A stretch of 64,000 nt of DNA from an uncultured Thermoplasmatales archaeon (GCA_964406955.1 CAYOTP010000001.1:5240-69239); one strand, 5' to 3'. Positions 48,373 to 54,202 are shown, counted from the first letter of the stretch. The notes: generated by a model from the sequence alone, not told the origin. Program-made: numbers and translations.

Positions 48373-48543
48373 ATGGTTAAAAAACAGGTTGAATTACACA
48401 TTAACGACAAAAAAATTCTGCTCAGTGAATTTCCTGAGCAATTCATGAAAAACACCTTACTTGGAATGGTTTCCACATTGAAAGGTGTTGATGAACCTAT
48501 TGAAACAATGAGAATAATGGTAACCAACAAGTTGGATGACTAA
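48373..48543 (+). CDS. possible 56-aa small protein (MVKKQVELHINDKKILLSEFPEQFMKNTLLGMVSTLKGVDEPIETMRIMVTNKLDD)
   Basis: ATG 6 nt after the mobB stop, same strand. Below the ORF-track cutoff. No motif recognised. Confidence 0.25.
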   Translation: MVKKQVELHINDKKILLSEFPEQFMKNTLLGMVSTLKGVDEPIETMRIMVTNKLDD

Positions 48544-48555
48544 TATAAATTACCA

Positions 48556-48768
48556 CTAGCGTTCTTGTTCTTGGTAAAGTTCTACGAATCGTTTGATGCT
48601 TCGATCATAAGTTTTTTCAATGTCATCTGGGAAATAACATGCAGGTAACTGCCCCATTTTTCGATGGTAATGTAAGCAGTCGCAGCATCTTCCTTTTCTT
48701 TCACAGGGATATGTGCAGTTACAATAATCCGACTTGTTTTGTACTTGTGTACATTCCATATATATCAC
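48556..48768 (-). CDS. Cys-rich 70-aa miniprotein (9 Cys: CxC..C...CxxxxCCxC)
   Basis: Start overlaps the ligA stop (ATGA). Cys spacing suggests metal binding. No recognised family. Confidence 0.4.
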
Positions 48769-50765
48769 GTTTTTTCTTTCTTTTTTGTCATATAAATGAA
48801 TTCATCTTCTTTAATGATGGGTATTCCTTGTTTTTTAGCTTTTTCATATTTGGAACCAGGGTTTTTACCAGTGACCAGGTAATCAACATTTTTACTTATT
48901 GATGAGGTTACTATGCCACCTTGTTCTTTAACGAGATCACCTGCTTTAGATCGGCTTAATTGATCAAGTGAACCAGTGAATACGAATTTTTTTCCTTGAA
49001 ATTCTTGTGATGTTTCCTGTTTTTTTACTTCAGTGTTCACGCCGTATTCTTTCAACCGATCAATGAGAGTGATGTTTTCTTCAGAAGCAAAAAAAGTTGC
49101 GATTGCCTCAGCTGATTTCTCCCCAAGTCCATCGATTTCTTTGAGTTCTTCTTCTGTTGCTTCAGCAAGTTTATCGATGGAAGAAAAACGAGTTGAGAGC
49201 AATTGGGCTGCATATTTTCCAACGTGTCTTATGCCCAGTCCATAAATTAATCGGGACAGATCTTGACTTTTACTTTGCTTGATGGAATCAATGAGATTTT
49301 GTGCTGATTTCTCTTTGAAACCTTCAAGTTGTAAGATATCATCTTTTGTAAGATCATAAAGGTCTGCTATGTTTTTAACCATATTTTTTTCCAAGAGTTT
49401 GTCAATAGTTGATTCTCCAAGATGATCGATATCCATCGCATCTCGAGATGCATAGTATTTCATTCGCCATTTTAATCGAGCTGGGCACATTTTATTTGGA
49501 CAGCGAATGGCTACTTTTCCTTCGCTTTGTTTTACTGGGTTATTACAAATTGGGCAGGTTGAAGGGACTGGTTTTTTTATTTCATTGCCTGTTCGTTTTT
49601 CAGTGATACTTTTTACGATTTGAGGAATGACATCTCCACTTCTTTCCACAAGAACTGTATCGTGAATACGGATGTCTTTTCGCTTCAGTTCATCAAAATT
49701 ATGTAAGGTGGCTCGGGAAACCGTCACTCCTCCAACTGTAACTGGTTTTAAAATAGCAACAGGAGTAAGAACACCAGTTCTTCCAACTTGAATGTCAATG
49801 TCCTTAAGAATGGTGGTTGCTTGCTGCGCAGCAAATTTATAACTAATTGCCCAGCGAGGATGCTTTGAGGTTGAACCAAGTTTTTCTTGCTTTTCAATGG
49901 AATTTACTTTAAGGACTGCACCGTCAATATCGTAATCAAGACCCTCTCTTTTTTGTTCAAGTCTCTTACAATATGATATTGCCTCATTAATGTCTCCTAC
50001 TTTTTTCGCAAGATGATTTGTTTTAAATCCAGCTTTTTTCAACGCCTTTAATGTTTCTTCTTGGGTCTTAAAAGGAGTTTCAGTATATGATATTAAATAA
50101 ATGAAGATGTCAAGAGGTCGATTTGCAACGATTGCTGGATCAAGTTGTCTGATGGATCCTGCGGCAGCATTGCGAGGGTTAGCAAAGGGTTGTTTACCAT
50201 CATCGATTTGTTTTTTGTTATATTCTTTGAATCCGGATTTGGTCATAAAGATCTCACCTCGAACCTCAACAGTGGATAACACGTCATTTTGTAACCGCAA
50301 TGGAATGCTATAAATCGTTTTTAGATTCTGAGTGATATCATCTCCTTTTCTCCCATCACCTCGGGTGGCACCGCGAACAAGTACGCCTTCTTCATAATAA
50401 AGGGCAACTCCGGCCCCATCGATTTTTGGCTCGACAACGTATTCAGCGTTTCCCACCTGTTTTTTTACTCGTTCATCAAAATCAATGAGTTCTTGTTCAT
50501 TATACGTGTTGGCAAGAGAAAGCATCGGGATTTTATGTTCCACGGTTTGAAATCCATCCAATGGTTCGCCGCCTACTCGTTGCGTTGGCGAATCAGAAGT
50601 GATGAGATCAGGGAATTTTCCCTCAAGTTTTTCAAGTTCTTTCAGAAGTTGATCGTATTCGTAATCAGAAATCTCTGGATTATTTTCCACGTAATATTTG
50701 TAATTATGATGATTAATTTCTTTTCGTAATTCTTTAATTTTTTGTGCTGCTTCTTTTTTATCCAT
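48765..50765 (-). CDS. ligA: NAD+-dependent DNA ligase
   Basis: Ia-domain N-terminus ([32 protein letters not shown]). Adenylation lysine motif EPKIDGAG. Zn finger CPICNN...CPNKMCP. HhH. C-terminal BRCT (KKFVFTGSL). Confidence 0.9.
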
Positions 50766-50778
50766 ATTGTTTTTTTCC

Positions 50779-52505: not shown

Positions 52506-53177
52506 TTAATTTCGCTGTTTTTTTAGATAAACAATAGCGTGAACAGGATCACCATCGTTAAGCTTAAGTTTCTTTCGAAGATTATCTGGTGAAATAAATT
52601 CCAGTATATTGGAATAATGTCCTCTTATGGGTAAAACGAGAACACATTTTTCGTTATTTATATGAGCTTTGAAACATTTCACTGCACCAAACGTTCGATT
52701 TTTTGTTCTGAACTCTTCAATTTCAATTCCTTGAAATTTTTTAATCAATCGTAACTTGTTTTTTTCGATGTGAGGGATTTTCACATTTAATGTGCCCGGA
52801 TATGGTTTAAAACCACACTGTTCATTGAACTGGGCTACATAACCTAGCTGAGCAAGATAATATGTTCCTTCACCCATTCCAGAGACAACATGGCCATCAA
52901 ATCTGATTTTTTGTGGTAACTCAAAAATATGCTTATATTGAATATATTCTTCCTTAAGAAGATCTGCACCGTTTTCAGTGATTTGAATTAATTGCTTTTT
53001 TATACCCATCTCTCGAGTAATCAAATTTAGTTTATCAAGCTCCAGAACATAACGAGATGCGGTTTGTTGACTGGTTTCAAGTTGATTGGATAGTTCAAGT
53101 GAAGAAAGTTCAACTCGATTATTGATCGCTCCGAGTAATGCAAGCTCTTTTAACATTTGCAAAAGATATGTTTTCAT
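52506..53177 (-). CDS. ribK: wHTH-fused CTP-dependent riboflavin kinase (archaeal RibK)
   Basis: N-terminal winged-helix (LSNQLETSQQTASRYVLELDKLNLI). C-terminal archaeal RibK motifs (GMGEGTYY ... PYPGTLNV). Confidence 0.75.
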   Translation of the reverse strand: MKTYLLQMLKELALLGAINNRVELSSLELSNQLETSQQTASRYVLELDKLNLITREMGIKKQLIQITENGADLLKEEYIQYKHIFELPQKIRFDGHVVSGMGEGTYYLAQLGYVAQFNEQCGFKPYPGTLNVKIPHIEKNKLRLIKKFQGIEIEEFRTKNRTFGAVKCFKAHINNEKCVLVLPIRGHYSNILEFISPDNLRKKLKLNDGDPVHAIVYLKKQRN

Positions 53178-53290
53178 CTATTCTTTTCCTCCCCATGTAC
53201 CGATTAGAGGATTTTTTTTATGGATAAACCTTTTTGATACTGTTATATACATGTATAAATGGTGGTATCAAAAACCTTTTGACTCGCAAG

Positions 53291-53533
53291 TTAAGTGTCT
53301 CTTTCACGGTCAAATAATAATTTCTTTTTATATATAATCTTAAAGATTCTATGGTGTGGAATTAGAGCTTTAATGGTTTGTAAAAATGTTTTACCGATGG
53401 AAATAATTTCATTTCCGGTAATTATTTTTGTATTTTTTGGTGCACCTCTATGGATATAATAAATCCGAACATCATTAAAAACAAATTTTTTTCTCCATTT
53501 CAATTCATTAAGAATATCTCTACTCCTATTCAT
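53291..53533 (-). CDS. hypothetical basic 80-aa protein
   Basis: Co-directional ORF between the MBL and ribK genes. No motif recognised. Confidence 0.3.
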   Translation of the reverse strand: MNRSRDILNELKWRKKFVFNDVRIYYIHRGAPKNTKIITGNEIISIGKTFLQTIKALIPHHRIFKIIYKKKLLFDRERDT

Positions 53534-53554
53534 CAGTATTAATAAGGTATCTAA

Positions 53555-54202
53555 TCAAAAATAGTTTACGTTTCTTAACGACATTTGAAGGTGTTGATTT
53601 CCATTTCCTTCAACGATAGTCTCATGACCAGGATATATATTGACAACATCCAGCTCACATAACTTTTTAATAGATTGTTTCAATGCTTCACTGTTTCCTC
53701 CTGGAAGATCTGTTCTACCATATGATCCATTTGCAAAAACAGTATCTCCCGAGAACAACATCTTTGATTCTTTGTTGTAGAAACAGATGCAGCCCGGCGT
53801 GTGACCTGGTGTGGAAATAACCTTGTACTCATCATCTCCAACCGTTACTGTTTCTCCACCGACAAATTTTTCATCTACAGGCATCTTAGGCATAGTTCCA
53901 CCAAAAAGACCAGCAAACAAACTTTCTCCTTTTTCAATTTTATCTGCTGCAGCAATATGTGCAAATATTTTTGCTTGCTTGTTTGTCGCTTCAAATAGTT
54001 GTTCAACACCTCCAGTATGGTCAAAATGTTCATGTGTGAGAAGGATTTGAGAGATTTGAGTTAATTCGACAAATCTAGAAATCTGAGATAAAACGGACTT
54101 TCCATGCATGCCCGTTCCAGTATCGATAATCGAAGGTTTTTTTCCAGATATCACAAAAACATTTGAATCATAGCCCGAACCAATGATTGAATAGATGCCC
54201 AT
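53555..54202 (-). CDS. MBL-fold metallo-hydrolase
   Basis: HxHxDH motif (LTHEHFDHTGG) plus downstream His/Asp ligands (GHTPG ... D ... H). 215 aa. Confidence 0.8.
   Translation of the reverse strand: MGIYSIIGSGYDSNVFVISGKKPSIIDTGTGMHGKSVLSQISRFVELTQISQILLTHEHFDHTGGVEQLFEATNKQAKIFAHIAAADKIEKGESLFAGLFGGTMPKMPVDEKFVGGETVTVGDDEYKVISTPGHTPGCICFYNKESKMLFSGDTVFANGSYGRTDLPGGNSEALKQSIKKLCELDVVNIYPGHETIVEGNGNQHLQMSLRNVNYF

What the first reader, a model, noticed from the sequence alone, without database searches (positions are those of the whole stretch)
48373..54202. Bacterial-type PolX-PHP plus NAD-dependent LigA repair operon in an archaeal context, led by a wHTH-riboflavin-kinase fusion
Minus-strand run, tightly spaced: MBL hydrolase, basic 80-aa ORF, wHTH-RibK, PolX with PHP domain, LigA, Cys-rich 70-aa miniprotein. 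The ligA stop overlaps the miniprotein start (ATGA). Archaea normally use ATP-dependent ligases and B/D-family polymerases. PolX and NAD-dependent LigA are characteristically bacterial and only sporadic in archaea. That fits a horizontally acquired gap-filling/ligation (BER- or NHEJ-like) module. The wHTH-RibK and the Cys-rich miniprotein are unexpected members and could be regulatory or accessory.
Basis: partly seen in the sequence, partly recalled or inferred. Interest (0 to 1): 0.55.

Follow-up and report, generated by a model that had tools for sequence, protein, structure and literature searches.

The report
Conserved archaeal rbkR-polX-ligA repair operon
[quoted passage not shown] The same operon also holds its riboflavin kinase/regulator and a tiny cysteine-rich protein, and it is old and inherited within the lineage rather than a recent import.

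Summary
The genes are real and correctly recognised. On the minus strand lie an MBL hydrolase, an 80-aa MJ1316-domain protein, wHTH+CTP-riboflavin kinase (the known regulator RbkR), canonical PolX-PHP, full-length LigA and a 67-aa DUF6485 protein.

Two details are wrong. There is no ATGA overlap: the DUF6485 ATG lies 5 nt after the ligA stop. A 113-nt gap separates MBL/MJ1316 from the conserved block.

The window is a Thermoplasmatota genome, probably related to MBG-D/Thermoprofundales. The block rbkR-polX-ligA(-DUF6485) recurs in the same order in every one of 23 related loci that reaches far enough. In these loci LigA is 64-86% and PolX 57-77% identical to the window proteins.

LigA and PolX each form a 100%-bootstrap clade. 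The nearest other LigA is 52% identical. GC, GC3 and codon usage are typical of the window. LigA is therefore of bacterial type but anciently acquired and vertically inherited, not a recent island.

None of 13 bacterial ligA loci carries polX. Outside the clade, 5 of 72 PolX loci carry LigA nearby, in unrelated PolX lineages and in different gene orders. This argues for functional coupling in gap filling and sealing.

The roles of RbkR and DUF6485 in the block are unresolved. Interest is modest: known parts in an apparently undescribed conserved arrangement.

The parts
52506..53177 (-). [quoted passage not shown] It is the first gene of the conserved block.
   Evidence: PF01982 E 2.3e-40. NF010762 scores 252 bits, below its cutoff of 279. 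Full-length alignment to T. acidophilum RbkR 3CTA/5TRD, E 6e-49, with recognition helix SQQTASR against SQQSASR. Present upstream of polX in every assessable related locus.
50779..52491 (-). polX: canonical family-X DNA polymerase (8-kDa/HhH, fingers, palm, thumb) with a C-terminal PHP domain. It starts 14 nt after the rbkR stop.
   Evidence: Pfam domains. NF006375 scores 579 bits against a cutoff of 426. 480 bits to T. thermophilus PolX 3AU2 over residues 5-566. K66, D196, D198 and D241 align to Pol beta K72, D190, D192 and D256 and are invariant in 16 clade members. The PHP motifs HxH, DH, E, H, H and DxH can be read in the translation.
48765..50765 (-). ligA: NAD-dependent DNA ligase with all six canonical modules. 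It starts 13 nt after the polX stop.
   Evidence: Pfam Nlig-Ia, adenylation (E 8e-96), OB, ZBD, HHH_2 and BRCT. NF005932 scores 876 bits and TIGR00575 864 bits, both above cutoff. KxDG motif 'EPKIDG' and four zinc-finger Cys are in the translation. A 100% identical protein is on record, and more than 100 homologues at 69-86% identity include named ones, all from Thermoplasmatota MAGs.
48556..48759 (-). DUF6485 miniprotein of 67 aa counted from the ATG at 48759, with eight invariant Cys and one invariant His. It is the last gene of the block.
   Evidence: PF20095 scores 36 bits against a cutoff of 24. Alignment of 40 bacterial and archaeal homologues has mean identity 66% and invariant C3 C13 C15 C19 C25 C26 C28 H32 C41. 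It lies downstream of ligA in all 12 assessable genome loci, in 5 metagenome loci and in L125. It is absent from L031.
53178..53290 (-). 113-nt intergenic region upstream of rbkR and the likely promoter region of the block. It holds A/T-rich TATA-like stretches, the inverted repeat TTTTTGATAC / GTATCAAAAA (core TGATAC-N24-GTATCA) enclosing the palindrome TATACATGTATA, and GGGGAGG 13 nt before the ATG.
   Evidence: Sequence read directly. The inverted repeat was found by pattern search at 53235-53270 and the palindrome at 53246-53257. It is partly conserved in the two closest loci only. No function is shown.
53291..54202 (-). MBL-fold hydrolase (53555-54202) and 80-aa MJ1316-domain protein (53291-53533). 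They are an upstream pair on the same strand and not part of the conserved block.
   Evidence: Pfam. Found next to rbkR only in L001 and L002. Most other clade members carry a 75-aa wHTH-like ORF in this position instead.
47855..48543 (+). Convergent neighbour that marks the 3' boundary: mobB (47855-48367) followed by a 56-aa ORF (48373-48543).
   Evidence: TIGR00176 scores 95 bits against a cutoff of 76. The 56-aa ORF matches the C-terminal part of NF011062, the MobB/FeS-domain fusion. Its stop lies 12 nt from the DUF6485 stop.

Best explanation
This is a lineage-specific, vertically inherited operon of a Thermoplasmatota clade that is probably related to MBG-D/Thermoprofundales. Its genes are rbkR, polX, ligA and DUF6485.

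The functional core is inferred to be polX plus ligA:
- The PHP domain of PolX cleans blocked 3' ends and AP sites.
- The Pol-beta-like core fills the short gap. A lysine equivalent to the Pol beta dRP-lyase nucleophile is conserved.
- The NAD-dependent ligase seals the nick.

Together these steps amount to short-patch base-excision or single-strand-break repair.

ligA is of bacterial type. It entered the lineage once, before the lineage diversified, and has been fully assimilated.

rbkR is the cell's housekeeping riboflavin kinase/flavin regulator, and its promoter drives the block. DUF6485 is a metal-binding miniprotein that joined the block in a sub-clade.

Shown here: gene identities, intact catalytic motifs, operon-like packing, conservation of gene order, clade monophyly, and lack of any compositional anomaly. 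Inferred only: the repair role, co-transcription, and any role of RbkR or DUF6485 in repair.
For: Packing:
- Gaps in the window are 14, 13 and 5 nt.
- In L031 the neighbouring genes overlap by 4 nt at both junctions. In L125 and L042 polX and ligA overlap by 4 nt.

Conservation:
- In 13 GTDB-species Thermoplasmatota loci the block is present wherever the contig reaches: RbkR 12/12, PolX 13/13, DUF6485 12/12.
- The same holds in 8 metagenome loci, in L031 and in the closed genome CP070836.1.

One old acquisition:
- LigA of the block forms a clade with 100/100 NJ bootstrap.
- The next best representative among 1.84 billion proteins is 52% identical.
- The nearest relatives with a known name or context are bacterial: Coatesbacteria/Firmicutes and Clostridia MAGs, a ligA-gatCAB locus, and a locus where ligA follows a riboflavin operon.
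- polX has GC 0.374 and GC3 0.298. ligA has GC 0.375 and GC3 0.271. Window genes average GC 0.374+-0.028 and GC3 0.283+-0.032.

Functional coupling of PolX and ligase:
- 5 of 72 non-clade PolX loci carry LigA within the fetched locus, P about 1e-5 at a background of 0.4%.
- These include PolX->LigA in a bacterium with an ECF sigma factor, LigA->PolX, and LigA-Fpg-PolX.
- Their PolX sequences do not cluster together, so the pairing arose repeatedly.
- PolX is also associated with an ATP-dependent ligase in Methanomicrobia and with LigD in Alphaproteobacteria (PMC9226535).
Against: - No activity or transcript data exist for this lineage.
- Conserved order within one clade can be inherited synteny rather than selection. 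Only the polX-ligA pair has independent recurrences.
- No glycosylase or AP endonuclease lies in the block.
- The RbkR operator consensus reported for Thermoplasmata (TTAC-N10-GTAA) is absent upstream of rbkR.
- DUF6485 has no consistent neighbour in bacteria and is missing from L031, so its link to ligA may be incidental.
- In L046 the ligA in the block is only 48% identical and falls outside the clade. The history therefore includes at least one replacement or a very long branch.
- The trees are NJ on sampled sequences, and most outgroup sequences have no name or taxonomy.
- The MBG-D assignment rests on a single named MAG, SG8-52-3, at 60% PolX identity (PMC6461988), and on C25 peptidase content.
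Confidence: 0.7

Rival explanations
1. LigA is not a dedicated repair enzyme. It is the main or only DNA ligase of these archaea, having displaced the ancestral ATP-dependent ligase. On this view the block is a housekeeping replication/repair operon, not an accessory repair module.
For: - LigA is universal and strongly conserved in the clade: 64-86% identity, always more conserved than PolX.
- It retains every module, including BRCT.
- Marine Group II is listed with a bacterial NAD-dependent ligase and, as I read the flattened table text, without an ATP-dependent one (PMC4153887, Table 3).
- In Haloferax volcanii the acquired LigN shares the essential function with the native ligase (PMC1684257).
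- No ATP-dependent ligase was seen among the nine window ORFs of 400 aa or more outside the block that were scanned.
Against: - Only 64 kb of the genome was visible, and the rest could not be searched with these tools.
- ATP-dependent ligases are near-universal in archaea (PMC3914693).
- This reading is compatible with the best explanation and does not exclude it.
Confidence: 0.3
2. The cluster is only inherited synteny of unrelated housekeeping genes. rbkR, polX, ligA and DUF6485 share a promoter by accident of history and have no functional relation.
For: - RbkR is a flavin enzyme/regulator with no known link to DNA repair (PMC5397151).
- DUF6485 has variable neighbours in bacteria.
- All loci with the complete block belong to one clade.
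- A NOG1 GTPase gene lies upstream on the opposite strand in both L031 and L125, which indicates broader synteny.
Against: - PolX-LigA adjacency recurs in unrelated PolX lineages and in different orders, far above chance.
- The block survives while its flanks change: MBL/MJ1316 or the 75-aa ORF upstream, and mobB or other genes downstream.
- In L046 a divergent ligA occupies the same slot.
Confidence: 0.2
3. The block is a recently acquired bacterial genomic island carrying polX and ligA together.
For: - LigA is of bacterial type.
- PolX is closest among solved structures to Thermus PolX.
- One bacterial contig, L104, has PolX followed by LigA.
Against: - Composition and codon usage are typical of the window.
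- No integrase, tRNA or repeat was seen among the genes examined around the block. The only tRNA found lies about 4 kb away.
- The block is present in all relatives, with sequence divergence that increases from the closest to the most distant loci.
- Clade monophyly is 100/100 for both proteins.
- 0 of 13 bacterial ligA loci have polX.
- The PolX of L104 is not close to the clade, ranking 26th of 72.
Confidence: 0.04

Closest known systems
Haloferax volcanii LigN and other haloarchaeal NAD-dependent ligases (PMC1684257, PMC3914693)
   Same: A complete bacterial-type LigA (Ia, adenylation, OB, Zn finger, HhH, BRCT) fixed in an archaeal lineage after transfer from bacteria and inherited vertically afterwards.
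   Different: It occurs in a different archaeal phylum-level lineage. Here ligA sits in an operon with polX and rbkR. Whether the two acquisitions are independent was not tested, because no named haloarchaeal sequence was in the sampled set.
NAD-dependent ligase of Marine Group II euryarchaea (fosmid HF70_B12, PMC1684257; Table 3 of PMC4153887)
   Same: A bacterial-type NAD-dependent ligase in uncultured Thermoplasmatota-related archaea, reported as a horizontal transfer. As I read the table, the ATP-dependent ligase is listed as absent there.
   Different: No gene-context description was found in those papers. The relation of the MG-II enzyme to this clade was not tested.
PolX-ligase gene associations in prokaryotes (PMC9226535)
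   Same: PolX is encoded next to a DNA ligase. That paper reports a strong association with an ATP-dependent ligase in Methanomicrobia and with LigD in Alphaproteobacteria.
   Different: The partner here is the NAD-dependent LigA, and the operon is led by rbkR. Neither the riboflavin-kinase terms (RFKase, PF01982, riboflavin) nor the LigA adenylation-domain terms (PF01653, DNA_ligase_aden) nor 'Thermoplasmata' occur in that paper's supplementary files.
Bacterial PolX enzymes of Thermus thermophilus (3AU2) and Deinococcus radiodurans (2W9M)
   Same: Same two-part architecture: a Pol-beta-like core plus a PHP domain. Scores are 480 and 280 bits over the full length. The catalytic Asp triad and PHP metal ligands are retained.
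   Different: The host is archaeal. Activities are untested here. Roles in BER are taken from established work on the bacterial enzymes and are not shown here.
RbkR of Thermoplasma acidophilum (5TRD; PMC5397151)
   Same: wHTH plus CTP-dependent riboflavin kinase, alignable over the full length, with a nearly identical recognition helix.
   Different: It is encoded at the head of a polX-ligA operon rather than beside rib genes. The published Thermoplasmata operator consensus is not present upstream of it.
Pfam DUF6485 (PF20095)
   Same: Clear member: 36 bits against a cutoff of 24, and 56-82% identical to the 39 aligned bacterial and archaeal members.
   Different: Only in this archaeal clade is it fixed downstream of ligA. 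In bacteria its neighbours vary.

Membership tests
NAD-dependent DNA ligase LigA | Six-module architecture: Ia NAD-binding domain, adenylation domain, OB fold, C4 zinc finger, HhH, BRCT | tested here: met
   All six Pfam domains hit. NF005932 scores 876 bits against a cutoff of 369, and TIGR00575 scores 864 against 444.
NAD-dependent DNA ligase LigA | Adenylation lysine in the KxDG motif, and four zinc-finger Cys | tested here: met
   'EPKIDG' and 'CPICN...CPNKMCP' are read in the translation.
NAD-dependent DNA ligase LigA | NAD-dependent nick sealing | not testable with these tools
   Requires an enzyme assay.
Canonical prokaryotic PolX (Pol-beta-like core + PHP) | 8-kDa/HhH, fingers, palm and thumb domains followed by a PHP domain | tested here: met
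   Pfam HHH_8, HHH_5, palm (weak), thumb and PHP. NF006375 scores 579 bits against a cutoff of 426. Full-length alignment to 3AU2.
Canonical prokaryotic PolX (Pol-beta-like core + PHP) | Three catalytic Asp in the palm, which distinguishes canonical from 'noncanonical' PolX (PMC9226535) | tested here: met
   D196, D198 and D241 align with Pol beta D190, D192 and D256 and are invariant in 16 clade sequences.
Canonical prokaryotic PolX (Pol-beta-like core + PHP) | Lysine equivalent to the Pol beta dRP-lyase nucleophile K72 | tested here: met
   K66 aligns with K72 and is invariant in the clade.
RbkR (bifunctional riboflavin kinase/regulator) | N-terminal wHTH fused to a CTP-dependent riboflavin kinase domain | tested here: met
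   PF01982 E 2.3e-40 plus a weak MarR_2 hit. Full-length match to taRbkR 3CTA/5TRD. NF010762 scores 252 bits, just under its cutoff of 279.
RbkR (bifunctional riboflavin kinase/regulator) | Binding to palindromic operators (TTAC-N10-GTAA in Thermoplasmata) upstream of riboflavin genes or of rbkR itself | tested here: inconclusive
   There is no match upstream of rbkR. The two matches in 64 kb compare with 1.1 expected by chance, and one lies inside ligA. No rib genes were identified in the part of the window that was annotated. Autoregulation is not universal in the family (PMC5397151).
DUF6485 (PF20095) | Profile match above the gathering score, and a conserved Cys/His pattern | tested here: met
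   36 bits against a cutoff of 24. Eight Cys and one His are invariant over 40 sequences.
Recently acquired genomic island | Deviant composition or codon usage, mobility genes or a tRNA at the borders, and patchy presence among close relatives | tested here: not met
   z-scores for GC and GC3 lie between -0.35 and +0.47. No mobility gene was seen among the neighbours examined. The block is present in all relatives.
Prokaryotic NHEJ (Ku + LigD) | A Ku homologue and an ATP-dependent LigD | not tested
   None of the genes of the block or its scanned neighbours hit Ku or LigD domains. The whole genome could not be searched.
Short-patch base excision repair pathway | A glycosylase or AP endonuclease, a gap-filling polymerase with end-cleaning activity, and a ligase acting in sequence | tested here: inconclusive
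   The polymerase (with PHP) and the ligase are present and intact. No glycosylase is in the block. One unrelated locus has LigA-Fpg-PolX. The pathway itself needs biochemistry.

The most novel reading that the evidence does not exclude
The block is a true functional unit in three respects:
- The flavin- and CTP-sensing regulator RbkR sets transcription of the gap-filling polymerase and of a bacterial-type ligase.
- That ligase has become the only DNA ligase of a whole, globally abundant order of sediment archaea.
- The 8-Cys DUF6485 miniprotein is a new metal-binding accessory factor of the ligase or polymerase.
Probability: 0.08. Interest if true: 0.6.

Novelty: new variant of a known kind. 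Interest (0 to 1): 0.32.

Why it matters
Archaea are textbook users of ATP-dependent ligases. Cases where a bacterial NAD-dependent ligase became fixed in an archaeal lineage are few: haloarchaea and Marine Group II.

These results add a widespread sediment lineage in which the enzyme is universally retained and hard-wired to PolX in one operon. That gives a natural system for three questions:
- Can a bacterial ligase take over archaeal repair, and possibly replication?
- How does it work without its bacterial partners?
- Why do PolX and a ligase repeatedly become neighbours?

The results also give DUF6485 a first reproducible genomic association. DUF6485 is a strikingly conserved protein of unknown function.

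None of this overturns current understanding. All parts belong to known families.

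Tried and rejected
- An exact look-up of the window's LigA in the contig index found nothing, although a 100% identical protein exists in the protein collection.
- The published Thermoplasmata RbkR operator TTAC-N10-GTAA is absent upstream of rbkR. Two hits in the window compare with 1.1 expected. The hit inside ligA (48865-48882) is not positionally conserved in relatives.
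- The inverted repeat upstream of rbkR (TGATAC-N24-GTATCA) has one other copy in the window. That copy lies inside the coding region of a secreted repeat protein, so it is probably chance.
- The AlphaFold model of DUF6485 has low confidence (pLDDT 66.5) and gave no Foldseek match in the PDB.
- A profile search of PDB sequences gave only a marginal hit to the zinc knuckle of ribosomal protein eL37 (E 0.047). This is a lead for metal binding, not evidence.
- Bacterial contexts of DUF6485 were examined for a recurrent partner and none was found. Neighbours were urocanase/flavodoxin, def-TrxR-Trx, SLT/UvrA, MetH/MnmG, and an aminotransferase with Mut7-C.
- Papers on Thermoprofundales (PMC6461988, PMC9585477) and the supplementary tables of the PolX survey were searched for this cluster. 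Nothing was found.
- The donor lineage of ligA could not be resolved. The nearest sequences are about 50% identical and mostly unnamed.
- Whether the nearest PolX outgroups are archaeal or bacterial could not be settled from neighbour domains.
- The presence of an ATP-dependent ligase elsewhere in the genome could not be checked with the available tools.

Full report
**1. What is there**

The minus strand between 48556 and 54202 carries six ORFs. Pfam and NCBIfam assign them as follows.
- 53555-54202: an MBL-fold hydrolase.
- 53291-53533: an 80-aa MJ1316-domain protein.
- 52506-53177: a winged-helix plus CTP-dependent riboflavin kinase fusion.
- 50779-52491: PolX with a PHP domain. NF006375 scores 579 bits against a cutoff of 426.
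- 48765-50765: a full six-module LigA. NF005932 scores 876 bits against a cutoff of 369.
- 48556-48768: a DUF6485 miniprotein.

Gaps between successive genes are 21, 113, 14, 13 and 5 nt.

The claimed ATGA overlap is not present. ligA ends with TGA at 48767-48765, and only a GTG overlaps it. All DUF6485 homologues start 'MEC', which places the start at the ATG at 48759.

On the plus strand, mobB and a 56-aa ORF converge on the block. The 56-aa ORF matches the C-terminal part of MobB/FeS-domain fusions.

**2. Whose genome**

The window encodes archaeosine tRNA-guanine transglycosylase, the archaeal CCA-adding enzyme, aldehyde:ferredoxin oxidoreductase and a C25 peptidase.

LigA has a 100% identical entry and more than 100 homologues at 69-86% identity. 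PolX has 120 listed homologues at 58-100%. Every named one is a Thermoplasmatota, Thermoplasmata or Thermoplasmatales MAG. One of them is SG8-52-3, which the literature treats as MBG-D/Thermoprofundales (PMC6461988).

The host is therefore a Thermoplasmatota archaeon, probably of or near that order.

**3. Are the enzymes intact**

PolX aligns over its full length with Thermus thermophilus PolX at 480 bits. Against human Pol beta, K66, D196, D198 and D241 align with K72, D190, D192 and D256. All four are invariant in 16 clade members. The PHP metal-ligand motifs are readable in the translation. By the criterion of PMC9226535 this is a canonical PolX.

LigA has the KxDG lysine, four zinc-finger cysteines and the Ia domain.

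The wHTH-kinase fusion aligns end to end with the crystallised RbkR of Thermoplasma acidophilum (E 6e-49). Its recognition helix is nearly identical, SQQTASR against SQQSASR. It is the known bifunctional riboflavin kinase/regulator, native to Thermoplasmata (PMC5397151).

**4. Conservation of the arrangement**

A scan of one genome per GTDB species with LigA returned 13 Thermoplasmatota loci (64-86% identity) and 13 bacterial loci (40-54%).

tblastn of the window proteins shows rbkR-polX-ligA-DUF6485, in the same order and on the same strand, in every archaeal locus that extends far enough.
- RbkR is present in 12 of 12 assessable loci.
- PolX is present in 13 of 13.
- DUF6485 is present in 12 of 12.
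- None of the bacterial loci has PolX, RbkR or DUF6485 beside LigA.

MBL and MJ1316 accompany the block only in the two closest loci. In most others a conserved 75-aa wHTH-like ORF precedes rbkR.

Further loci agree.
- Eight metagenome contigs with PolX at 57-60% identity show the same block.
- The closed genome CP070836.1 shows it too.
- A more distant archaeal contig, L031 (LigA 64%), keeps rbkR-polX-ligA with 4-nt overlaps at both junctions but lacks DUF6485.
- The sister LigA (52% identity, L042) is again preceded by PolX with a 4-nt overlap.

**5. Origin**

Against 1.84 billion representative proteins, the clade is represented by one sequence at 64% identity. The next hit drops to 52% and then to about 50%. 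The few nearest sequences with a name or context are bacterial.
- Named MAGs are Coatesbacteria/Firmicutes and Clostridia.
- One locus is ligA-gatCAB.
- One locus has ligA following a riboflavin operon.

In NJ trees the LigAs that lie in the block form a clade with 100/100 bootstrap. The PolXs do likewise.

GC, GC3 and codon usage of polX and ligA sit at the window mean (profile).

ligA is thus of bacterial type and evidently came from bacteria. It came once and long ago, and the donor cannot be named from these data.

PolX occurs in 31% of archaeal genomes, with a mixed phylogeny (PMC9226535). I could not decide whether its nearest outgroups are archaeal or bacterial.

**6. Is the polX-ligA pairing meaningful**

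Among 72 metagenome loci with non-clade PolX (41-50% identity), five carry LigA within the fetched stretch.
- L104 has PolX followed by LigA in a bacterium with an ECF sigma/anti-sigma pair.
- L079 has PolX followed by LigA.
- L098 has LigA followed by PolX, next to ribosomal protein S2.
- L068 has LigA, Fpg and PolX.
- L112 has LigA about 5 kb away.

With a generous background of 0.4%, the probability of five or more is about 1e-5.

These PolXs do not cluster with each other or with the clade. The adjacency therefore arose several times.

The published association of PolX with ATP-dependent ligase in Methanomicrobia and with LigD in Alphaproteobacteria (PMC9226535) points the same way. Together these results support a functional polymerase-ligase pair for gap filling and sealing. 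The LigA-Fpg-PolX locus points specifically to base excision repair.

**7. The unexpected members**

rbkR leads the operon. The 14-nt gap to polX leaves little room for a separate promoter, so polX and ligA probably depend on the rbkR promoter.

The published Thermoplasmata operator (TTAC-N10-GTAA) is not present in the 113-nt upstream region. That region contains a different inverted repeat with a nested palindrome, partly conserved in the two closest relatives only. Its significance is unknown.

DUF6485 is remarkable in itself. Eight Cys and one His are invariant, and mean identity is 66% across archaea and many bacterial phyla. Its bacterial neighbours vary. The structure model is weak and matches nothing. 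The only sequence lead is a marginal resemblance to the eL37 zinc knuckle. I regard it as a metal-binding miniprotein whose link to ligA is clade-specific and of unknown meaning.

**8. Comparison with what is known**

Bacterial-type NAD-dependent ligases fixed in archaea are known from haloarchaea (LigN, which shares the essential function with the native ligase) and from a Marine Group II fosmid (PMC1684257, PMC3914693). As I read Table 3 of PMC4153887, Marine Group II has the NAD-dependent enzyme and lacks the ATP-dependent one.

PolX-ligase neighbourhoods are known with other ligase classes (PMC9226535).

I found no description of the rbkR-polX-ligA(-DUF6485) operon or of LigA in MBG-D-like archaea.

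The finding is therefore a new variant of a known kind: known families in a conserved, apparently undescribed arrangement.

**9. Verdict**

It is wrong in implying a recently or jointly imported module and in treating RbkR as an oddity.

The main open question is whether LigA is the only ligase of these archaea. It could not be addressed here, and it would raise the interest if answered yes.

Noticed in passing
L046:509-4450 (metagenome contig Ga0256868_10001536): This locus keeps rbkR (60%), polX (59%) and DUF6485 (53%) in the usual order. Its ligA is only 48% identical and falls outside the clade in the NJ tree, nearest to the LigAs of L068 and L104. This is either an in-situ replacement of ligA or a very fast-evolving orthologue.
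   Followed up: partly
L004:7573-12169 and L005:1921-6516: Divergence is uneven along the block. LigA is 83-84% identical to the window, the same as in the closest loci. PolX (62%) and RbkR (67%) are much more distant than in those loci (76% and 82-85%). This suggests recombination inside the operon or strongly different rates.
   Followed up: no
L012:7351-7578, L006:7361-7588, L125:5349-5576: A conserved 75-aa ORF ('MDEGFILANKFRR...') with a weak Sso10a-family/wHTH hit lies directly upstream of rbkR in most clade members. It has no counterpart in the window, where MBL and MJ1316 genes occupy that position.
   Followed up: partly
window 48373-48543 (+): A 56-aa ORF immediately after mobB matches the C-terminal part of NCBIfam MobB/FeS-domain fusion proteins. 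It is conserved next to mobB in L001-L004. It looks like a split or separately encoded C-terminal domain.
   Followed up: partly
window 53235-53270 (upstream of rbkR): An inverted repeat TGATAC-N24-GTATCA, extended to TTTTTGATAC/GTATCAAAAA, encloses the perfect palindrome TATACATGTATA and overlaps TATA-like sequence. It is partly conserved in L001 and L002. A second copy with identical spacing at 63522-63557 lies inside a coding region.
   Followed up: partly
window 48865-48882; L006:11976-11993: Exact matches to the Thermoplasmata RbkR operator consensus TTAC-N10-GTAA lie near the 3' end of ligA, about 100 nt before DUF6485 in the window. In L006 the match is at the ligA/DUF6485 junction. They are not positionally conserved, and the count is near chance.
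   Followed up: partly
L028:4514-6511 (Omnitrophota-like contig): Here DUF6485 sits between peptide deformylase and a thioredoxin reductase-thioredoxin pair, overlapping the reductase gene by 7 nt. In other bacteria its neighbours include flavodoxin, MnmG and MetH. There may be a loose redox/flavin theme, but it is unproven.
   Followed up: no
L034:776-8323: One of the closest bacterial LigAs (50% identity) lies just downstream of a riboflavin biosynthesis operon (ribBA, ribH, nusB, ribD, ribE) that also contains a stand-alone PHP-domain gene. This is a curious echo of the archaeal rbkR/PHP/ligA neighbourhood and is probably coincidence.
   Followed up: no
L068:45-4402: A high-GC contig carries LigA, an Fpg/Nei glycosylase on the opposite strand, and PolX as neighbours. 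This looks like a compact base-excision-repair cluster.
   Followed up: partly
window 58462-58536 (-): ARAGORN calls a tRNA-Pro (TGG) here, but the Rfam scan at gathering thresholds reported no family anywhere in the window, not even tRNA.
   Followed up: no
window 45525-47824 and 55040-58306: The flanks encode several secreted or membrane proteins. They include a C25 (gingipain-like) peptidase with its propeptide, a Big_7 Ig-domain protein, and two paralogous proteins of unknown function (228 and 297 aa) that cross-match in relatives. This is typical of protein-degrading sediment archaea.
   Followed up: no
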